64,000 bases of DNA from NCBI RefSeq assembly GCF_009914755.1, contig NC_060933.1, one strand, 5' to 3'. Source of the stretch: the human T2T-CHM13v2.0 reference genome, Homo sapiens. Position 1 is the stretch's first letter, and each line of letters opens with the position of its first letter. A model generated the notes under the pieces. It made no database searches. It was given only the letters and a program-made list of their open reading frames with translations, and was not told the DNA's origin. Of this stretch, positions 19,301 through 34,712 are shown one piece after another. Made by a program: the position numbers and the translations under genes.

Positions 19301-19613
19301 GTCTCAGCAGAAGGAGTTTGCTTTTATTCCAAGTGAGAAGAAAGTTGCTGGGGTGTCTTAAATTTTCCTCAAGGCAATAATAGTTGTCTTGCATAATAGT
19401 GGTCTACTTTGCATATTAGATGTTTATTGCACTTTTAATACACATGTGCATGCACATTGCACACACTTTGAGAACAGGAACTACATCTTGCTTTTATTTT
19501 TATCCTCAACTTCAGTACCTAGAGCAGTGCTTGGCAAACCATAATCAATGAAAGAATGAATGAATGAATTCCAGCAAATGACATAACTTTTTATTTTCCT
19601 GTGTAGCCTGTGG

Positions 19614-19681
19614 ATGTACTCATTTGTCTGTGATGTACTCACATGTATGTACTCACATGTACAAATGAGTACATGTGATGT

Positions 19682-19728
<47 letters not shown>

Positions 19729-19996
19729 CACAGCCACTTGAGTCGACTGAAGAGATCAGAGAAGAAAAGAAGTGAGGCAGCATTTACTACAACCTAAAAG
19801 CCAAGCCTCAGAAGAAGTGAGAGCCTGGAACTATGAGCCTTATGTATGAGCAGCTCTTGTACAAAAGAGAAGTGAGATAAAATGGGTCAGGAGTCTAAAA
19901 GATGGCAATCCCAGTTTACCTTTGCTTTTATCCTACTTTGATCAAATAATGAGTACATGTGATGTTCTCTTTGTCAAATGTACTCATTTGTCTGTG
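19614..19996. other. Composite templated insertion flanked by a 19-bp direct repeat
   Basis: atgtactcatttgtctgtg at 19614-19632 and 19978-19996. It encloses the reverse complement of 22795-22938 and a direct copy of 25849-25952. Confidence 0.88.
19685..19725. repeat. (CA)n microsatellite
   Basis: About 20 CA units. Confidence 0.95.
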
Positions 19997-21389
19997 TTCT
20001 ATATGGCTCCCACACATACTATGACCATTTCCACTTGAGGTTGTTAGTCTCAGATTTATGGGTCATTGATAATGTACATGCAGGATTATATATTTCTTAT
20101 ATATACCACATAAACCTATGCTGGCCCCTTACATGGTTAACTTAGCTGCTATTTTTGTTTTCACTTCTACATGCCATATTTGGGGTAGAGAAGATTAAAA
20201 AGCATATGTGGACAACACAGAAATGGCATCTGGAAAGCAGCCGTGTTGCAGCACTCTCAACTTCCCTTGAAAATTTCCAGAAAGGCTCAGAAACAAGAAA
20301 AAAATCTCACCACAGCCACAAAAAGCATGCTTGTCAGACAGCCTGTTGCCAAGACCCAGGAGCCACCTCCCTGAGGGAAGCAGAGATAGAAGGAGTGGAG
20401 AAAGGCTTTTATGCCTCCCCTGGAGTTTTCCATTTACAGAGCCCCTTGGTCTATTCCAGCCAGAAAGCTGAGTCCCCCTCCCATTTTTCAAGGAGCTGAT
20501 TCCTTTTAAGGCAGGCAAAAAGCTGCTTCCCATTCACCCTTCCTTCTTTCTCTATTCACCCAACCTCCACAACTCCCCAAATCCAGTAGGATAAAAAAAG
20601 GGAGGGATCTTTTTCCCTCCCTTGAAGCATGTGTAAAGCTTAACTGCATCCTGGGAAGTGTAGTTCCAGCACTTAGGTGGATCCAAGAAGTAAGATTTAT
20701 GGCAGAAGTATTCTACATGCTGGGATTGTAGCTTTTCATGCACAGGGTGTTGAGTCAGCATCTCAAAGAATCAGACAATGACGGTTAGGAGCAATACCCC
20801 ACCCGTGCAGAGCTGCATTAGAATTTAGAGTTAGGTTAGAAGCTGCGCAAACACCTGTTCTGCAGCTGCAGGTGTGAGATCATCATACAAATGGAGGGCC
20901 GGCATTGATGAAGCCAACCCCATACCATGTATGACTGCTGCCTCAAAGTCTCAAGAAAGCTCACCTTATTTAAATATTTATATTGAAGAAGTAAGTTATA
21001 GGAAAGACTACTTGGAATCAGTGAAAAAATTGTTGAAGACCCCAGGATGTCTATTTCAGGAACCAGGAGAAAGTTTCAAAAATTTTCAAAATATCTTTTG
21101 AAATGTAAGCCTTCCTTAGGCAGGCAACACTTTCTACCTTGCATTATGGTTGTTTGTGTGCAACGTCTTAATACACATAGGCATATACATACATCTGCCT
21201 GCACACTTTGATAACAGGAGACATGTCTTTCTTTTATTTACATTCCTAACATCAGAGCCCAGCACACTGCTTGGAATGTCATAGGAACTCAGTGAATGAA
21301 TAAAGAATGAATTCCAGCAAATGACAAAATTTGCTCTTTTTTTCTTATTGAGTATGTGGATGTTCTCATTTATCTATGTTCTATTTGGC

Positions 21390-21850: not shown

Positions 21851-22627
21851 CTCAGCTGATATCATCTAGCTGCATGGCGTGGGCAATTTTCGGAGCCTAA
21901 TTTTCTTCATCTTTAAAGGGGAAAGTTTCCAGAGAGTCACTAGATCCCTGCTAGACGTGACTATTTTATGATTTCATAAATGTTTGGAGGACTAGAGGGT
22001 CTAAGACAGCAATTGACTATTTTAACATCTCATTTGAGATAGAACAAGCAAAGAACAATTGCAAGTCCTCCCAAACAAGGCTTTATTGCCCCTTAATATA
22101 ATTTGCTCCAGTGCATTAACTGGGATTCCAGGAATGTTCTAAGCACCCCAGATGTTCTCATAGTAACATCAGGACCTCACAGCCTCTGGCAACACTACCT
22201 GTTTTTGACTTCATGTGGAGCAGAAACCTCCTGATCACAATGATGTCTGTCAAATCCAGCATTAAGATTTTGAACACTAGGACCCTCCAACCTCCCAGCA
22301 GATTTTGGCACACTTCTTGCTCTCTCCTCTCTTCCGGAAGACTCTAGGACTAAGGCATCTTCTCCATGAGCTCCCTCTAAGTCCATGCATGCCCTCAGTC
22401 CCAATAATTTTTGGCTTCCAGAGCTCCTTCTTCTCAGCCCAGGCACCAAGCAACTTTTCAGCATTTATTCAGCATTTAAATCAACCTCAACAGTGAACAC
22501 AGCCTTCCTTTTTGCTCATTTTCAGAGCCCAGCGATTTCATAGAATGGCAGGGCATCAGGTCCAGATCATTTAGACCACTGCCATGACCAGCGATAGGTA
22601 TGGACTCCACTTAAAAATAAGGCTCGT

Positions 22628-22790
22628 AGCCGGGCATGGTGGCACAAGTCTGTCATCCTAGCTACTCAGGAGGCTGAGGCAGGAGAATTGCTTGAACCTA
22701 GGAGGCAGAGGTTGTAGTCAGCTGAGGTCGTGCCACTGCACTCCAGCCTGGGCATCAAAGTGAGACTCTGTCTCAAAAATAAAAAAAAAT
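22628..22790 (+). mobile_element. Alu right monomer (5'-truncated Alu or FRAM) with a 17-bp TSD
   Basis: TSD aaaaataaggctc(g/a)tag at 22613-22629 and 22791-22807; TT|AAAAA endonuclease site at 22611. Confidence 0.9.
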
Positions 22791-22910
22791 AAAAATAAGG
22801 CTCATAGTTCCAGGCTCTCATTTCTTCTGAGGCTTGGCTTCTAGGTTGGAGTGAATGCTGCCTCACTTCTTTTCTTCTCTGATCTCTTAAGTCGACTCTA
22901 GTGGCTGTCA

Positions 22911-22938
22911 GTGTGTGTGTGTGTGTGTGTGTGTGTGT
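22911..22938. repeat. (GT)n microsatellite
   Basis: About 14 GT units; this is the donor of the 19685 (CA)n. Confidence 0.95.
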
Positions 22939-24104
22939 AGGAATAGGCATGAATTTACCAGCCAGAATATACACACACACCCTTTCCTGTCTTGTCGTGT
23001 CCTGTTTTAGGTTATTCAAAATGTTATTCAGTGGCCACATTTACAGCAATAATAAAAATAGGCAGAAGTCATCAACACTATGAATAGTAAACACATTTAG
23101 AAAAAGGTGGCAGACAATAACGACGTCTGGGAAGTGTTTCAGTGGAGTCTTTCCTCACATGAGCACGCAGTGGTGTGGCTGCCAGAACTCCCTGGCTTCT
23201 GTACTTGATTTACACAATGGTCTGGGTTGCCCTAGTTGTAACCATGCAGCTTGGCTCTGGGCTTCATAAATTCAGACCCCAGAATACAGTTTATTTATGT
23301 TATGACTCCATCCAAAACGTTGCAAAGAAGCCAACTCCCTTCATCCCATTAAAAAGGTATAATATGTATTTTTACTAGCCTGCAGAGCTTGGCATTCAGA
23401 GGTAACAATATGTGCTTTGTTACTCTGCAGGTTTGCCGTGAAGTGTGCTGTAATCTTTGCCAGGGGTGTGCTGCTCTCTCCCAGGAGGGTTCACAGCCCG
23501 GGAGGAACACTTCAGACTGCTTAACGACTTGCTCGGGCCTTGCCTTATATGGAATTTTTCCTTCTGCACAAGAGAATGACAACCACTTAGAGTGACAGCC
23601 AGCAGGGAACAGATGACAGCCAAAAATCCACTGTGCTCTTGGTCCCAGGATGTCCTATCTGACTTGAACTTTTGCTGTTTAGGCTTGCTCTCTGATAATG
23701 AATTTGGGAATGCCAACAGGTTTGGAGGAATAGGAGTCACTTAGAAAAGCTAGCCAGATAACTCCATTTTAGAAAGCATGGGGGAATGTCTTTCCCATTA
23801 ATCCTGGTAAGTTAGTTAACAAGCACAGGGCACAATAGGTCCCCAAATAAATGGAAGAAATGGTGCAAAATGCAAGCTACAAAGTAGGTGTTTGATCATA
23901 CACATTCATATTTTATTATTTAATTTGATTCAATCTTAGGGTCAGAGCTAACAGAAATAAATATATTTATTATTATTATTGATCAATAATTATTAGAACC
24001 ATAAAGAAGTGTCCTCACACTCAGAGTCTAGTGTGCTAGCCCAGTAGAGAGACACCAATGATATCCCCAGGAGGTGGAAGGGAGGTTGGTGTGGATCTGG
24101 TTCA

Positions 24105-25393: not shown

Positions 25394-25799
25394 GGCTATA
25401 TGTCCATAATTTTAAAGATTACAAATGACTCTATCAAAAGTTATTCTGTTGACAGTTTCAACACAATATTTACCAGTTGAAACTGATTTTTATGCTCTTG
25501 GAAGCTGGTGGCCACCTTCTTATATGTATGTTTGGTTTATTCTAGGATACTTAGTTGATTAACCACTTGGAATGAAGTAGAGTTGTGTTTTCTTTTTTTT
25601 CTTTTTTTAACTGTAGCAGAGTGACCAAGCATGCAAAGGAGGGAGAGAGAATATGATCCATGGCAAATGCAAATACCCCCTATACTCTTTCCATCTGGAC
25701 TTGGTGAATTGGGCTGCCCTTCTGCAGTTGAGGGTACATGAACAGCCCAGTTTCTCATTCCCAAAAGGACACTAGGGTTTGCAGGGAATGACGCACTAC

Positions 25800-25862
25800 A
25801 GGGGTTCCCAAGACAGCTGGGGCATCGGCCTTAAACATGAGGCGATAGGAGCAGCTCTTGTA
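25800..25862 (+). repeat. ~62-bp dispersed direct duplication (partner 26520-26582)
   Basis: aagaca(g/a)ctggggcatc(g/a)gccttaaacatgaggcgataggagc(a/g)gctcttgta is shared. Confidence 0.9.
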
Positions 25863-26112
25863 CAGAAGAGGAGTGAGATAACATGGGTCAGGAGTCTAAA
25901 AGATGGCGATCCCAGTTTACCTTTGCTTTTATTCTACTTTGATCAAATAATGTGTGATGCTAACATCATTGTATTGGAAATAGAATCATGATGCTTCCTA
26001 AGTTAAATGGCAGATTGCATGTACTGTCATGTGTCCTATCTGTCATGATGCTGACAGTTACACAATTTTGCTCTGGAAACTGGGAATTACACTTTGATTT
26101 TGGGGTAGAGGG

Positions 26113-26504
26113 TGTTATATTGGCTTGCTAGGCTGCCATAACAAAGTACCAGAGACTGGGTGGCTTAAACAACAGAAACTTTTTTGCTCACAATTCTGGA
26201 GTCTGGAAGGCCAAAATCAAAGTGTTGGCAGGATTAGTTTCTTCTGAGGCCTCTCTCTTTGGCTTATGGATGGCCATCTTCTCCCTGTGTCTTCACCTGG
26301 TCCTCCCTCTGTGCAAGGTTATGTCTTAATTTCCTATTCTTATAAAGACTCCAGCCATATTGGATTAAGGCCCACTCTGATGATCTCATTGTGACTTAAT
26401 TGCCTCTTTAAAGACCTTATCTCCAAATACAGTCACATTCTGAGATACTGGGGATAAGGACATCAACAGATGAATTTTGGGAGGACACAATTCAGCCCAT
26501 ATCA
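26113..26504 (-). mobile_element. MLT1A/B-type MaLR solo LTR
   Basis: 'ggctgccataacaaagtaccagagactgggtggcttaaacaacagaaa...gacacaattcagcccatatca'. Confidence 0.85.
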
Positions 26505-27992
26505 GATGTGCTCTCCCTTAGGGGGTTCTAAGACAACTGGGGCATCAGCCTTAAACATGAGGCGATAGGAGCGGCTCTTGTATTTCTGTCTTTAGTCCCT
26601 TGGTCTGCCCGTTAGTCCTTCTAGAAGGAGTCCACTTGACAGATCATGATGCCCTTCAGAAGTACCCAGGTCTCTCACAGTATCTAGCAGGGCCTCCCCA
26701 GGCTACTCCAACAGACTATTGAAATTAGTCACGCGCCCCACCATATTAGAACCACTTTCCTGGGCCTAGGCAAGTCCCTAGTGCTGGGGAATAATCACTG
26801 GACTAGTGATCAAGAGATCTCGTTCTTGTCTAGATTGCTGCTGGCTTGCTCTTGGGCAAGTCTTTTTCTCATCTGGGGCTGATTTTCTTACCTAAGAAAT
26901 GTTGAGCTTTATGATTTCTGAGGTTGGCTATATGTGAATTGCCCTAGTAAGTGCAAATGTGTTTTCATAGGTTAGAAAAAAAAAAAAAAGCCCAAAAAGT
27001 ATTTTCTGGGAATTGAGAGTTGTAAGCACCTACAATTCTAGAATATACTTTATTATAAAAGTTAAAATGTTATGCAATCCTATAGAAAAATTCAGGACCA
27101 TTTTGCTGTTGTCTAAAATCAGATGTGTGATCTCCATCTTCTTAATTTGACAGACATTTGCCACAAGTCACTTCCACACCAGGCAGAGTGCTGAGCACTG
27201 TGAGAAGGATGTGGGAATTCAGAGGCTAATAAGTTCTAGTCCCCTGCTCCCAAGGAGTTCGTTGTCAACCTGTTTTCATCACTGGATGTTTAGAAGCCTT
27301 GGATAATATCAAAGGTATCTATGTTGGAGACCATGGGCTTCAATTTCTGGCTGTCTTTTGGCATTTAGAACCTAAACAGCTCTGGGCTGGTAGACATCAC
27401 TGACATGACTTTATTGTTCCCATGAGTGAACATCTGCATGAGATCAAAAGTAGTGATTTCAGTGTCACCAATATTGAAAAATACAGAAATTGAAATTGTA
27501 GGTAAACCCCTGGATGGTTATAGTTCAGGACAGAAAGACAAGGAGTGAAAGAAACTCCGTGAAACAGGAAATGCCAAGAAAAGCCTATAGCTTCCCTGAC
27601 TTGAGACAAAGGCTGTTGACTAGAATCTCTTGATTCTTAGTCCAGTGATTATTTTCTAGCAATAGGGACTTGCTCAAGCACAGGAAATTAGTTCCAATAT
27701 GGTGGGGGCACATGGCCAATTTCAATAGCCTGTTGGAATAGCCTGGAGATGCCCTGTTGCATACTGGCATGTTTGATTCCTTATTGAAAAAAGATAAAAT
27801 ATATACAATTGCAAAATTCATATAATTCTGCAAAAGTAATATAATGTAAAGGAAAAAGAGGAAAAAAAGTTCTGCTACCATGTTAAAAAAATCATGCAAT
27901 GCTAAGTATGATACCTGAATTAGAATGGTCAAGGGTGGCCAACCAGTGGAGACAAAACTCATTTCCTTCTCATCCTCAGAGCTCTGCCCTAG

Positions 27993-28051: not shown

Positions 28052-29465
28052 ATACCAGGATGTTAGCCTGTATGAAATTTCTGGGCTAGATGAAAGAGAG
28101 GGGTTGGGATTGAGGCAAGTTCTGGAAAATAATTTGTTTTTTTCTAAAGGTCATGATAGCTACTTGGATCTAGCCAATTGTTACCATGAAGAAATTTTTA
28201 AAATGTTGGCAATCAACTTAAGACATTCTTTTGTAAGATATAGTATGGTCCAAACAAAACCATGCCTTGGTCACTAATTTGCAATTTCTGTTCTACAGCA
28301 TCTTCCAGATCTTTATGGTTACATTAATGATCTGAGGCAAAAAGTGCAATTCAAGACAGGTTTCTTTCCCAATGAAGAAATACAAGATAGGACCCAATAC
28401 AGGCAGAGACCCTTGCATCCCACCCTCACCCCTGCTTCTGGCTTCCTAAGCAAACTGTACAATCTACTTAAGTGCGATGTCCATGTGAGTCTTTCAAAAT
28501 ATACCTGAATCCAGCCAGGCAACCCTAGATTTTCAGTTCTGTTTTGTTTGCTTTCAAATGATTTTCATTCAGTATTCCACTCAGAAAATGTCTAAACTGA
28601 GTGGGGAACTGCGGTTGAGTTGGGCATATACAAGGATATCCTCAGTTTGAATCTTCCCTAAATATCCATAAGGGAAAAAACCCCACTTTAATAATAAATT
28701 ATTCAAATGTGCATTCGTTCTTGAAACATTTTAAGGATGTTTACATTGAAACCAGATGCCTGCTCCACAGACAGCCCCCGTTTCTGTTGATTTTACAGCT
28801 CTCCTGCTCACTTCAGTTTTCTCAGTAGGGTCTTTGTTTTACTCACTAGTAAAAAGAATGTTTCTTTTGTTTGCTTTTCTTTGCCATCCGCGCTGACCAG
28901 ACTCTAGAGGGAACTCCAGCCATGCTGTGATTTGGCTAGCATCCCCTTCATTTCACTCCTAAAAGTCATATGTACACATAATAGTAAATCGTTTCTGAGA
29001 CCTCATGCGCTTGGGCTTTTCCTAGCTCGTTCTTCTTCCATGTGGTTGGAGTTTTGCAGCAGTTTGAGTAACAGTTCAATCATGCTCTCAATTAAAGAAG
29101 TTGAGTCAGTTCATGATACCCATCTCATAGAGCAAGATGAAGCTAGGATTTCTAGGGAATTTCTGGCCGTTCAAAAATGTCATCTGAACCCAAAGCTTTT
29201 ATTTCTAAGCTGAGCTGAATCCATCACCGAGTAAAGAGCAGGAGGGAAAACTCATTTGTTCAAATGCCTGCAGGTATTGGCCTGAGGGAATATGGGGAGA
29301 ATAGCTATTCCCAAGGATACCCTTTTTCTTTCTTAGTGGTTGGCCATTCAAAGTGTAGCAAGAACCAGAAAGGTGAGCTATCTAAGTCTAAGAAAAAGTA
29401 AAAGTCATAAAGATAACTAAGCAAAGCTTTTCTACTCACACTCTATTTGGCCTGATTGGTCCTTT

Positions 29466-34264: not shown

Positions 34265-34712
34265 TTTAATTTTTTTTGATGAGTACATATTTATAGGGCA
34301 CATGTGATATTTTGAGTACATGTATAGAAAACCTAATGATCAAATCTGGGTATTTAAGAAGTCTATCACCTCAAGCATTTATAGTTTCTATGTTTTGGGA
34401 ACATTTCAAGTCCTCTTTCTAGCTATTTTGAAATATACAATACATTGCTGTTAACCATAAGTGACCTATTCTGCTATTGAACATAACGTGTTCTATCTAT
34501 CTGTATGTTTGCGCCTATTCGCCAACCACTCTTTATCCCCACCTACCCTCATACACACCCTTCCCAGCTTCTAGTAACTATCATTCTAATCTCTACCTCC
34601 ATGAGATTAACTTTTTTAGCTCCCACGTATGAGTGAGAAAATGCAAGATATGCCTTTCTGTGCCTGGATAATTTTACTTAACATAATAACCTCCAGTTCC
34701 ATCACGTTGCTT
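34265..34712 (-). mobile_element. L1MA 3' end
   Basis: 'catatttatagggcacatgtgatattttg...ctctacctccatgagattaacttttttagctcccac'. Confidence 0.85.

What the first reader, a model, noticed from the sequence alone, without database searches (positions are those of the whole stretch)
19614..19996. Patchwork insertion built from two neighbouring loci plus fold-back filler: a fixed multi-template-switch repair scar
Seen in sequence, in order: (1) a 19-bp direct repeat atgtactcatttgtctgtg bounds the block (19614-19632 and 19978-19996). (2) 19633-19681 reiterates that end: atgtactcacatgt twice, then acaaatgagtacat (19661-19674), the exact reverse complement of atgtactcatttgt. (3) 19685-19843 is an inverted copy of 22795-22938, about 3 kb away. 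(4) After a 4-nt spacer (gtat), 19848-19951 is a direct copy of 25849-25952, about 6 kb away. (5) The sequence then returns through an aatg microhomology to an 18-bp repeat aatgagtacatgtgatgt (19664-19681 and 19948-19965). There is no poly-A tail, L1 endonuclease site or terminal inverted repeat, so this is not a standard mobile element. Inference: one break was healed by serial template switching (polymerase-theta end joining or MMBIR/FoSTeS-like) and fixed in the germline. The similar 5-6% divergence of both captured pieces suggests a single event in primate ancestry. Repeat annotation would probably flag only the CA run here.
Basis: partly seen in the sequence, partly recalled or inferred. 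Interest (0 to 1): 0.8.

Follow-up and report, generated by a model that had tools for sequence, protein, structure and literature searches.

The report
Break-repair patch copied from two neighbours
A 345-base insertion in an intron of PALM2AKAP2 is an old chromosome-break repair scar stitched together from copies of two nearby stretches plus short fold-back filler, which is a well-preserved example of a kind of scar already catalogued in primate genomes.

Summary
19633-19977 is an insertion bounded by an exact 19-bp duplication. It holds an inverted copy of 22795-22938 (136/144 identical) and a direct copy of 25849-25952 (99/104), joined by GTAT and framed by short direct and inverted reiterations of the duplicated 19-mer.

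In the whole CHM13 assembly the block matches only itself and those two loci, so it is not a repeat family. A new point fixes the direction of copying. The flanks are collinear with an old paralogue at 21133-21389, which carries the 19-mer once. That acts as an internal "empty site".

There is no poly-A, no L1 endonuclease site and no terminal inverted repeat. The best reading is a chimeric "repair-mediated duplication": a break patched by synthesis on nearby templates (SDSA/MMBIR-like), with fold-back filler. Pace et al. 2009 described this class, with 824 proximal cases and 20 two-donor chimeras. This locus is not in their table.

Three things stay unshown: one event versus two nested steps, the polymerase, and the date (5.5% divergence, roughly hominid to catarrhine age). 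No primate orthologues were reachable with these tools. An RNA-templated, twin-priming-like origin is not excluded. It is ordinary in kind and unusually legible in detail.

The parts
19403..19613 (+). Left flank of the insertion site, part of an old duplicated or repeated stretch
   Evidence: Aligns with 21133-21359 as part of the 19403-19632 to 21133-21378 alignment, 71% identity, E 1.6e-26. That paralogue is its only other match in the genome.
19614..19632 (+). Left copy of the 19-bp target duplication (T1)
   Evidence: Exact repeat of 19978-19996. Aligns to the single 19-mer of the paralogue, 21360-21378, at 16/19.
19633..19660 (+). Filler: two tandem 14-nt units, each made of the first 9 nt of the 19-mer plus CATGT
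   Evidence: period 14, 2.1 copies, 100% matches.
19661..19674 (-). Filler: exact inverted copy of the first 14 nt of the 19-mer, forming a hairpin with T1 and the tandem units
   Evidence: pair I4 (14 nt, 100% complementary). DNA fold of 19605-19690: -18.8 kcal/mol, z -3.0.
19664..19681 (+). Left copy of the exact 18-mer, either an inner duplication or a re-copied filler piece
   Evidence: (family D3).
19685..19725 (+). CA run, the copy of the donor's GT run, now longer than in the donor
   Evidence: 20.5 units. The donor run is 22911-22938.
19728..19843 (-). Tract 1, unique part: inverted copy of 22795-22910
   Evidence: 109/116 identical. Whole BLAST hit 19700-19843 to 22938-22795, 136/144, E 1e-60.
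19844..19847 (.). 4-nt junction filler GTAT between the two tracts. With its neighbouring bases it reads TATG TATG.
19848..19951 (+). Tract 2: direct copy of 25849-25952
   Evidence: 99/104 identical. BLAST 19845-19954 to 25846-25955, 103/110, E 2e-43.
19948..19965 (+). Right copy of the exact 18-mer. It holds an inverted copy of the first 11 nt of the 19-mer and overlaps tract 2 by AATG.
   Evidence: Hairpin with T2: 19940-20005 folds at -10.1 kcal/mol, z -4.0.
19962..19975 (+). Filler: degenerate direct copy of the first 15 nt of the 19-mer
   Evidence: Local alignment of 19961-19975 to 19613-19628, 14 of 16 columns with one gap. Filler 19952-19977 against the flanks: 3 of 500 shuffles score as well.
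19978..19996 (+). Right copy of the 19-bp target duplication (T2)
19997..20007 (+). Right flank that continues the paralogue alignment directly after the 19-mer
   Evidence: 19978-20007 aligns to 21360-21389 at 26/30.
21133..21389 (+). Old paralogue of the target site, carrying one copy of the 19-mer: an internal 'empty site'
   Evidence: It has no hairpin potential (z +0.4).
22795..22938 (+). Donor 1, including a GT run at 22911-22938. It lies 2.8 kb downstream of the block.
   Evidence: The context 22805-23400 has only 2 places in the genome: itself and the block.
22626..22790 (+). 5'-truncated Alu (named from recollection) with a 13-bp target duplication at 22613-22625 and 22791-22803. Tract 1 ends 4 nt inside the right copy of that duplication.
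   Evidence: Read. NCBI masks 22624-22804 (hub table). Subfamily not determined.
25849..25952 (+). Donor 2, lying 5.9 kb downstream of the block and 2.9 kb downstream of donor 1
26520..26582 (+). Separate 63-bp direct copy of 25800-25862. It shows that the sequence across donor 2's left boundary is continuous.
   Evidence: 57/63 identical, E 8e-15 genome-wide. These are the only two copies apart from the block's overlap.

Best explanation
A germline break in the 19-mer region of an old repeat was repaired by copying nearby DNA into the gap. This is a chimeric repair-mediated duplication.

Shown:
- The target 19-mer is duplicated on both sides of a 345-bp insert.
- The insert holds an inverted copy of a stretch 2.8 kb downstream and a direct copy of a stretch 5.9 kb downstream, abutting within 4 nt.
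- Both junction regions are filled with direct and inverted reiterations of the first 9-15 nt of the 19-mer, and these fold into hairpins.

Inferred:
- The break was staggered, or both ends otherwise kept the 19-mer.
- The 3' ends first made short abortive fold-back or slipped copies of their own flank.
- They were then extended on the two nearby templates for about 100-150 nt each. This happened either as one end on each donor, with the two new strands then joined at GTAT (the SDSA model for chimeras), or as one end switching serially (MMBIR-like).
- The AATG overlap, and a re-copy of the 18-mer, led back to the target.

In the two-ended version both tracts are copied from the + strand. The scar has no detectable function. 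It dates roughly from hominid to catarrhine ancestry.
For: - Tracts and repeats are confirmed.
- Single-locus status: the block has 3 places genome-wide. Each donor context matches only itself and the block, plus one 63-bp local copy for donor 2.
- Direction: both flanks are collinear with 21133-21389, which has one 19-mer and no insert. The left flank aligns at 71%, E 1.6e-26. The right 30 nt align at 26/30, directly adjacent.
- Donor 2's left boundary lies inside sequence that is continuous in an independent copy at 26520-26582.
- Equal tract divergence: 7/116 and 5/104, Fisher p 0.77.
- Hairpins at both ends (z -3.0 and -4.0), none at the paralogous empty site.
- No poly-A and no TTTT/A site next to either duplication.
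- Fit to the published class (PMC2671141). Proximal duplications there have mean length 162 bp. There are 20 chimeras, 5 with the second donor 289-3,432 bp from the first; here the gap is 2,911 bp. Target duplications span 4-21 nt (here 19), filler 1-68 nt (here 52, 4 and 26), and none of 39 inspected proximal cases has a poly-A.
- Experimental analogues (abstract; passages): paired-nick overhangs raise complex insertions, the median insert is 120 bp, and donors are enriched nearby.
Against: - No orthologous empty site from another species could be examined. The empty site is inferred from a 71%-identical paralogue.
- Microhomology at the long-tract junctions is short or ambiguous: 1 nt, or 5 nt if TATTC is donor-derived, at the left; 0-3 nt at GTAT; 4 nt (AATG) at the right.
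- The 51 nt of short repeat pairs (19 + 18 + 14) show no difference at all, while the tracts differ from their donors by 5.5%. The chance of that at equal age is 0.057. The parts may therefore differ in age, or some tract differences arose during synthesis.
- Donor 2 lies beyond the 5-kb 'proximal' cut-off of Pace et al.
- The exact 18-mer pair fits a second staggered break as well as a re-copy does, so 'one event' is not established.
- The enzyme cannot be read from the sequence.
Confidence: 0.7

Rival explanations
1. RNA-templated patch with twin-priming geometry. The two break ends primed reverse transcription on one sense RNA, the PALM2AKAP2 pre-mRNA, which spans both donors on the + strand. 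The left end primed internally at the GU run and the right end primed further 3'. The two cDNAs were then joined at GTAT. No canonical L1 endonuclease cleavage was involved.
For: - If each break end was extended separately, both tracts must have been copied from the + strand. That is the sense strand of the host gene (geometry worked out; gene strand from the hub table).
- The inverted piece lies upstream of the direct piece on that strand, as in twin priming.
- The tract lengths (about 145 and 104 nt) and the 18-19-nt duplications are in the range of retro-insertions.
- Published work ties templated insertions at breaks to transcribed donors, RNA/DNA hybrids and reverse-transcriptase inhibitors (PMC5110952; bioRxiv 2022.09.30.509517 abstract).
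Against: - There is no poly-A tail and no polyadenylation signal with a tail.
- No TTTT/A-like site lies beside either the 19-mer or the 18-mer, in either orientation.
- There are no splice signals at the tract ends.
- The strand and order geometry has about a 1 in 8 prior chance on its own (my estimate, no call).
- In Pace et al., 0 of 39 inspected proximal duplications carried retro-insertion marks.
- DNA templates explain everything equally well.
Confidence: 0.15
2. Several independent events at a fragile site. First came a small local duplication and inversion cluster of the 19-mer, made by short-range template switches. Later came a separate break in the resulting hairpin. That break captured the two donors, possibly even one at a time, and made the 18-mer a second target duplication.
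For: - The exact 18-mer pair directly flanks the two long tracts, as a target duplication would.
- Without the tracts the remainder is a 61-bp hairpin-forming filler, and such palindromes are break-prone (general knowledge).
- One internal 19-mer copy, 19962-19975, is degenerate while the others are exact.
- The zero-difference statistic, p 0.057, hints at unequal ages.
Against: - Two staggered breaks of 19 and 18 nt at one spot is a coincidence, unless the first event caused the second.
- The two tracts have equal divergence and abut within 4 nt.
- Iterative re-copying within one repair event is documented for such scars (abstracts seen in the listings).
Confidence: 0.1
3. Reversed direction, or a decayed segmental duplication. 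The 19.7-kb block is the original, or all three loci are remnants of a larger old duplication that was rearranged by inversion and deletion.
For: The copies differ by 5-6%, so some later rearrangement cannot be excluded from one genome alone.
Against: - The paralogue with a single 19-mer and continuous flanks shows that the block is the inserted state.
- Two separate copy-outs would have had to end at the same 4-nt point.
- No further homology exists between the 19.7-kb surroundings and 22.9-25.8 kb.
- Donor 2's boundary is internal to a sequence that is continuous in a third copy.
Confidence: 0.03
4. An unrecognised mobile element or low-copy repeat family inserted with a 19-bp target duplication.
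For: There is a long target duplication, and an 18-nt inverted repeat at 19661-19678 and 19974-19991.
Against: - Only 3 places exist in the 3.1-Gb assembly, and all lie within 6.3 kb.
- The inverted repeat is itself built from the duplicated target, so it is not an element terminus.
- The content is two unrelated local stretches in opposite orientation.
Confidence: 0.02

Closest known systems
[quoted passage not shown]
   Same: - The insertion interrupts older sequence.
- Each inserted tract has exactly one other copy, on the same chromosome and a few kb away.
- Tract sizes are about 100-160 bp, and there is no poly-A.
- The junctions carry microhomology, filler and a target duplication within the published ranges.
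- It is a two-donor chimera whose donors lie 2.9 kb apart, like 5 of their 20 chimeras.
   Different: - The locus is not in their Table S1. There are no PALM2/AKAP2 rows, and none of the 107 chr9 mentions falls between 107.7 and 116.0 Mb of their hg18 coordinates. My placement of the locus near 111.5 Mb in hg18 is recalled.
- The acceptor here is not in a stretch that NCBI masks, whereas their method needed an annotated transposon.
- The second donor is 5.9 kb away, beyond their 5-kb class.
- The filler is unusually elaborate: six reiterations of the target 9-mer, counting the two 19-mer copies, and hairpins at both ends.
Synthesis-dependent microhomology-mediated / polymerase-theta end joining with snap-back filler, and fold-back inverted insertions at breaks (PMC2943611, PMC5728401, PMC4912351, PMC11724301; search listings and abstracts only)
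   Same: The filler next to the break is templated from the immediate flank, in direct and inverted orientation, by repeated short synthesis. It creates hairpin-forming repeats.
   Different: Those insertions are mostly a few to a few tens of nt and come from within the flank. Here two tracts of over 100 nt come from 2.8 and 5.9 kb away, and the target is duplicated rather than deleted. The enzyme is untestable from the sequence.
MMBIR / FoSTeS serial template switching (as described in the abstracts of PMC8421209 and PMC11293582; mechanism otherwise from general knowledge)
   Same: It uses several templates in both orientations, drawn from the same chromosomal neighbourhood, with short or no homology at the joins.
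   Different: The scale here is hundreds of bp rather than kb to Mb copy-number change. Microhomology is weak at two of the three long-tract junctions. A two-ended break model fits equally well.
Templated sequence insertion polymorphisms, class 1 and class 2 (Onozawa & Aplan 2016, PMC5110952; parts 1 and 2 of 4 of the text read)
   Same: Unique genomic sequence is copied into a break while the donor stays intact. Like class 1 it has a target duplication. Like class 2 it has no poly-A and has filler at the junctions.
   Different: It fits neither class cleanly. It has a target duplication but lacks the poly-A and the TTTT/A site of class 1, and class 2 is defined as lacking a target duplication. 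The donors are local rather than distant. It is old rather than polymorphic as far as divergence tells; polymorphism was not tested.
L1 twin priming (Ostertag & Kazazian 2001; recalled, not read here)
   Same: An inverted 5' piece is followed by a direct 3' piece from one strand of one transcription unit, between long target duplications.
   Different: There is no L1 sequence, no poly-A and no endonuclease site. The two pieces are 2.9 kb apart in the source rather than adjacent.

Membership tests
Repair-mediated duplication (Pace et al. 2009) | An insertion of at least 50 bp interrupts an older, otherwise continuous sequence | tested here: met
   A 345-bp insert lies between flanks that are continuous in the paralogue 21133-21389. 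The published method uses a transposon consensus; here a paralogue plays that role.
Repair-mediated duplication (Pace et al. 2009) | The inserted sequence is found at only one other place in the genome | tested here: met
   The block has 3 places genome-wide, namely itself and one donor per tract. Reciprocal donor searches agree. The tool warns that very common words are skipped.
Repair-mediated duplication (Pace et al. 2009) | The donor is on the same chromosome within 5 kb. For chimeras, at least one donor must be. | tested here: met
   Donor 1 starts 2.8 kb from the block's end. Donor 2 is at 5.9 kb, outside the cut-off, as is allowed for second donors.
Repair-mediated duplication (Pace et al. 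2009) | No poly-A/T tract, and junctions with microhomology, filler, deletion or target duplication | tested here: met
   No poly-A/T at the junctions. Target duplication of 19 nt. Filler of 52, 4 and 26 nt. AATG overlap.
Repair-mediated duplication (Pace et al. 2009) | Empty orthologous site in an outgroup species | not testable with these tools
   No primate genome can be searched here.
L1-mediated retro-insertion (class 1 TSIP, twin priming) | Target-site duplication | tested here: met
   19 nt for the outer pair and 14-18 nt for the inner pair.
L1-mediated retro-insertion (class 1 TSIP, twin priming) | A non-templated poly-A of 10-40 nt after a polyadenylation signal | tested here: not met
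   No A or T run lies at either end of the insert, or beside the 18-mer.
L1-mediated retro-insertion (class 1 TSIP, twin priming) | Insertion at a TTTT/A-like endonuclease site | tested here: not met
   The outer junction contexts read GTGG|ATGT and CTGTG|TTCT. The inner ones read ACA|AATG and GATGT|TCTC.
Class 2 TSIP (break patch from a distant locus) | No target duplication, with end-joining marks at the junctions | tested here: not met
   A 19-nt duplication is present. Filler and microhomology are present.
Polymerase-theta / SD-MMEJ snap-back filler | The filler is templated from the immediate flanks, direct or inverted | tested here: met
   6 of the window's 8 matches of the 9-mer lie in the block. 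Exact inverted 14-mer. Filler against flank: 13 of 500 shuffles (left) and 3 of 500 (right) score as well.
Polymerase-theta / SD-MMEJ snap-back filler | Dependence on polymerase theta | not testable with these tools
   An enzyme cannot be read from a scar.
MMBIR / FoSTeS | Microhomology of about 2-5 nt at every template switch | tested here: inconclusive
   AATG (4 nt) at the donor 2 to 18-mer join. 1 nt, or 5 nt if TATTC is donor-derived, at the 18-mer to donor 1 join. 0-3 nt plus 4 nt of filler at the donor 1 to donor 2 join.
DNA transposon or other mobile element | Multiple copies with the same termini, and terminal inverted repeats at the element's ends | tested here: not met
   There is one copy. 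The only inverted repeat is made from the duplicated target itself.

The most novel reading that the evidence does not exclude
The patch was reverse-transcribed from the nascent sense transcript of the host gene, or copied from the + DNA strand displaced by that transcript. Both break ends primed on one single-stranded + strand molecule 2.9 kb apart. This would be a twin-priming-like, endonuclease-independent, transcription-coupled repair event, preserved in the germline with every intermediate step of filler synthesis still readable.
Probability: 0.15. Interest if true: 0.55.

Novelty: new member of a known kind. Interest (0 to 1): 0.25.

Why it matters
It adds no new mechanism. Small local templated duplications made during break repair are known to have shaped primate genomes.

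Its value is as a specimen. Two donors, three long-tract junctions, a 19-nt target duplication and at least six short re-copies of the target survive almost undamaged. It lies outside annotated transposons, where the published catalogue could not look.

It shows that an old paralogue can stand in for the missing empty site. Two-donor scars of this type can therefore be found from a single genome.

The scar has no sign of function. It lies in an intron, about 8.3 kb from the nearest RefSeq enhancer (28334-28503), and has no RNA-family match above threshold.

Tried and rejected
- A loose-gap alignment of the block region to the paralogue gave meaningless scatter. It was replaced by a stricter one.
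- A greedy exact-match parse of the filler gave only 5-11-nt pieces. Apart from the pieces derived from the 19-mer, it could not assign templates.
- For sub-pieces of the filler, 144 of 500 shuffles (19966-19977) and 460 of 500 shuffles (19675-19684) scored as well as the real sequence. The resemblance of 19966-19977 to the end of donor 2 is therefore not significant, and I do not rely on it.
- Rfam gave 5 matches at E up to 1, all far below their gathering scores: mir-297 38.6 against 90, mir-466 32.5 against 85, mir-3149 26 against 100, and two weaker ones. Most overlap the CA run. I do not read the hairpins as RNA genes.
- The L1/retro-insertion reading is rejected as a family assignment, because there is no poly-A and no endonuclease site.
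- The spliced-transcript reading is rejected. The tracts have opposite orientation, and there are no splice signals at tract 1's ends or a polypyrimidine tract before tract 2.
- The transposon reading is rejected on copy number.
- A molecular-clock date is too loose to use. The point estimates are 24-57 My, and the 95% range across the rates tried is 12-100 My.
- As an empirical scale I used donor-acceptor divergences from Pace Table S1:
  - human-specific rows: mean 0.9% (15 rows);
  - chr9 hominid-specific rows: 3.1-7.6%, mean 5.3% (9 rows);
  - chr9 catarrhine-specific rows: 4.4-12.2%, mean 6.8% (8 rows);
  - chr9 all-primate rows: 1.6-15.1%, mean 8.1% (24 rows).
  The means were computed by hand from the rows shown.
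- One paper reading failed on a search term that was too short and was not repeated.
- The Alu subfamily and the family of the flanking old repeat could not be determined, because no repeat library is available. My impression that the flank is MIR-like is recollection only.
Full report
**What is there.**
- The 19-mer ATGTACTCATTTGTCTGTG is exact at 19614-19632 and 19978-19996.
- Next comes a tandem pair of 14-nt units at 19633-19660, then an exact inverted copy of the first 14 nt of the 19-mer at 19661-19674.
- A CA run follows at 19685-19725.
- The inverted tract 19700-19843 matches 22938-22795 at 136/144, E 1e-60. Its unique part shows 7 differences in 116 positions.
- Four bases, GTAT, separate the tracts.
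- The direct tract 19848-19951 matches 25849-25952 with 5 differences in 104 positions. BLAST gives 103/110, E 2e-43.
- The second copy of the exact 18-mer AATGAGTACATGTGATGT lies at 19948-19965; the first is at 19664-19681.
- Twelve further filler bases precede the second 19-mer.
- The 9-mer that starts the 19-mer occurs 8 times in the 64-kb window, 6 of them inside the block. The expectation is 0.6, and 0 of 100 shuffles reach 8. The other two matches lie 33 nt apart near 34.3 kb in unrelated A-rich sequence.

**Not a repeat family.** The window's own assembly (3.1 Gb) can be searched.
- The 383-bp block has 3 places: itself and the two local sources.
- The context of source 1 (22805-23400) has 2 places: itself and the block.
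- The context of source 2 (25400-26120) has itself, the block, and one further 63-bp copy 720 bp downstream.
- The tool warns that very common words are skipped and that counts are lower bounds. Unique tracts of over 100 bp at 94% identity would nevertheless have been seen.

**Direction of copying.**
- The left flank together with the 19-mer (19403-19632) aligns with 21133-21378 at 71% identity, E 1.6e-26.
- The right 19-mer with the next 11 bases (19978-20007) aligns with 21360-21389 at 26/30.
- Both copies of the 19-mer therefore align to one and the same 19 nt of the paralogue (16/19). There the flanks run on without any insert.
- This paralogue is the left flank's only other match in the genome. 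The right flank beyond 20007 has none.
- The paralogue acts as an internal empty site. It shows that the block is the derived, inserted state, that the 19-mer was duplicated by the event, and that nothing was deleted.
- Independent support comes from the sources. The sequence across source 2's left boundary is continuous in the separate copy at 26520-26582 (57/63).
- The right end of source 1 lies inside the 13-bp target duplication of an adjacent 5'-truncated Alu. The left copy of that duplication (22613-22625) shows the same bases in continuity with the upstream flank.
- Parsimony points the same way. Two stretches that are 2.9 kb apart and opposite in orientation at the sources abut within 4 nt in the block.

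**Anatomy of the filler.**
- Both ends of the block fold back on themselves as single strands. 19605-19690 gives -18.8 kcal/mol (z -3.0; 3 of 200 shuffles fold as well). 19940-20005 gives -10.1 kcal/mol (z -4.0; 0 of 200). The paralogous empty site has no such potential (z +0.4).
- The filler is built almost wholly from the duplicated target. There are two direct 9-nt copies in the tandem units, one inverted 14-nt copy, one inverted 11-nt copy inside the right 18-mer, and a degenerate direct copy at 19962-19975. Filler 19952-19977 against the flanks: 3 of 500 shuffles score as well. Filler 19633-19684: 13 of 500.
- The 18-nt inverted repeat 19661-19678 against 19974-19991 (17/18) runs across the right junction into the filler. 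Some filler was therefore copied from an already modified end, which means the synthesis was iterative.
- Three smaller resemblances are noted but not relied on. TATTC at 19681-19685 may continue source 1 beyond its GT run with a 2-nt gap. TGTGATG follows source 2 and also lies inside the 18-mer. The likeness of 19966-19977 to the end of source 2 is not significant (144 of 500 shuffles).

**What it is not.**
- No A or T run lies at either end of the insert or beside the 18-mer. None of the four junction contexts resembles the L1 endonuclease site TTTT/A (definition from PMC5110952). It therefore fails two defining features of an L1-mediated insertion, although it has the target duplication.
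- The tract ends carry no splice signals, and the tracts have opposite orientation, so a processed transcript is out.
- With one copy in the genome it is not a transposon. Its only inverted repeat is made from the target itself.
- Rfam gives only sub-threshold matches, most of them overlapping the CA run.

**Mechanism.** The features are those of a break repaired by templated synthesis on nearby sequence.
- Inferred sequence of steps: the break left the 19-mer on both ends, through staggered nicks about 19 nt apart or an equivalent.
- The ends then made short slipped and fold-back copies of their own flank.
- Next the ends were extended for about 145 and 104 nt on two stretches 2.8 and 5.9 kb downstream.
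- Finally the product was closed.
- Two versions fit. In the first, the left end copied source 1, the right end copied source 2, and the new strands were joined at GTAT. This is the model given for chimeric duplications in PMC2671141. In the second, one end switched templates serially.
- In the two-ended version both tracts must have been copied from the + strand, which is the sense strand of PALM2AKAP2. This is my inference from the orientations and the hub's gene table. It is the geometry of twin priming, and it leaves room for an RNA or R-loop-displaced template. I estimate its prior chance at about 1 in 8, so it is weak evidence.
- The exact 18-mer pair that brackets the tracts is either a re-copy reached through the AATG overlap, or the target duplication of a second staggered break in a hairpin made by a first event. 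One genome cannot decide between these.
- The 51 nt of short repeat pairs show no difference, against 5.5% in the tracts (p 0.057). This is a mild hint that not everything has the same age, or that some tract differences arose during synthesis.

**Date.**
- The two tracts do not differ in divergence (Fisher p 0.77). Pooled, 12/220 gives 5.5%, with a 95% interval of 2.8-9.3%.
- Clock estimates give 24-57 My depending on the rate. The 95% range across the rates tried is 12-100 My.
- Against the donor-acceptor divergences in Table S1 of Pace et al., 5.5% sits in the middle of their hominid-specific and catarrhine-specific rows and at the low end of their all-primate rows. Their human-specific rows average 0.9% (15 rows). 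On chr9, hominid-specific rows average 5.3% (9 rows), catarrhine-specific rows 6.8% (8 rows) and all-primate rows 8.1% (24 rows).
- "Somewhere between hominid and catarrhine ancestry" is as far as this goes.

**Comparison with what is known.**
- The closest described class is the repair-mediated duplication of Pace, Sen, Batzer and Feschotte 2009 (PMC2671141; abstract, sections 6-7 and Table S1 read).
- That work lists 824 proximal duplications within 5 kb, with mean length 162 bp. There are 20 acceptors that are chimeras of two donors, 5 of them with the second donor 289-3,432 bp from the first.
- Their junctions carry microhomology of 2-9 nt, filler of 1-68 nt and target duplications of 4-21 nt. 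None of the 39 inspected proximal cases has a poly-A.
- The present block meets every feature I could test. The outgroup empty site cannot be tested here.
- It is not in their table. There are no PALM2 or AKAP2 rows, and no chr9 entry lies between 107.7 and 116.0 Mb. The locus's approximate hg18 position is recalled, not computed.
- That absence is expected, because their method needed an acceptor inside an annotated transposon, and the site is not among the stretches NCBI masks.
- The fold-back filler matches what is described for synthesis-dependent and polymerase-theta end joining, and for fold-back insertions at breaks (listings and abstracts only).
- Experimental work shows that paired-nick overhangs raise complex insertions, that inserts have a median of 120 bp, that donors are enriched nearby and in transcribed DNA, and that several donors can be joined (bioRxiv 2022.09.30.509517; abstract, section 8 and passages).
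- It fits neither TSIP class cleanly (PMC5110952).
- A full-text search for PALM2 together with templated-insertion terms listed 10 of 136 papers holding at least two of the terms, and none of the 10 contains PALM2.

**Verdict.** The new paralogue argument fixes the direction without outgroups. The claim of a single event, the named polymerases and the date are not established. The kind of event is already known and common. It is a new, unusually legible member of a known kind, with no sign of function.

Noticed in passing
window 25800-25862 and 26520-26582: A 63-bp direct duplication (57/63 identical) that exists only at these two places in the genome. It overlaps the left boundary of donor 2, so the same 150-bp stretch took part in two separate small dispersed duplications. 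Which copy is the acceptor was not worked out.
   Followed up: partly
window 26678-26818 and 27625-27766: An inverted pair of 142 bp at 81.7% identity, about 0.8 kb apart, with no other copy in the window. It could be another local repair duplication, or two copies of an old repeat.
   Followed up: no
window 22613-22803: A 5'-truncated Alu (22626-22790) with a 13-bp target duplication at a typical TT|AAAA site. The copied tract 1 ends 4 nt inside the right copy of that duplication. Either synthesis stopped at the A-rich tail of an Alu that was already there, or the Alu later hit almost the same spot. Chance of a boundary falling that close is roughly 1% (my estimate).
   Followed up: partly
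window 19403-20007 and 21133-21389: An old paralogy of about 260 bp at 71% identity, 1.7 kb apart and in the same orientation. No further copy was detected in the genome at the search's sensitivity. Part of it looks MIR-like to me from recollection, but the homology extends further than I would expect for that element.
   Followed up: partly
window 19614-19733: Sub-threshold Rfam matches to microRNA precursor families (mir-297, mir-466, mir-3149) on the hairpin and CA run. All score far below their gathering scores, so I take them as composition or hairpin artefacts.
   Followed up: yes
window 34280-34321, minus strand: The only two matches of the 9-mer ATGTACTCA outside the block. They lie 33 nt apart next to an A-rich run, and this looks like the 3' end of an L1 (recollection). 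They are unrelated to the block.
   Followed up: partly
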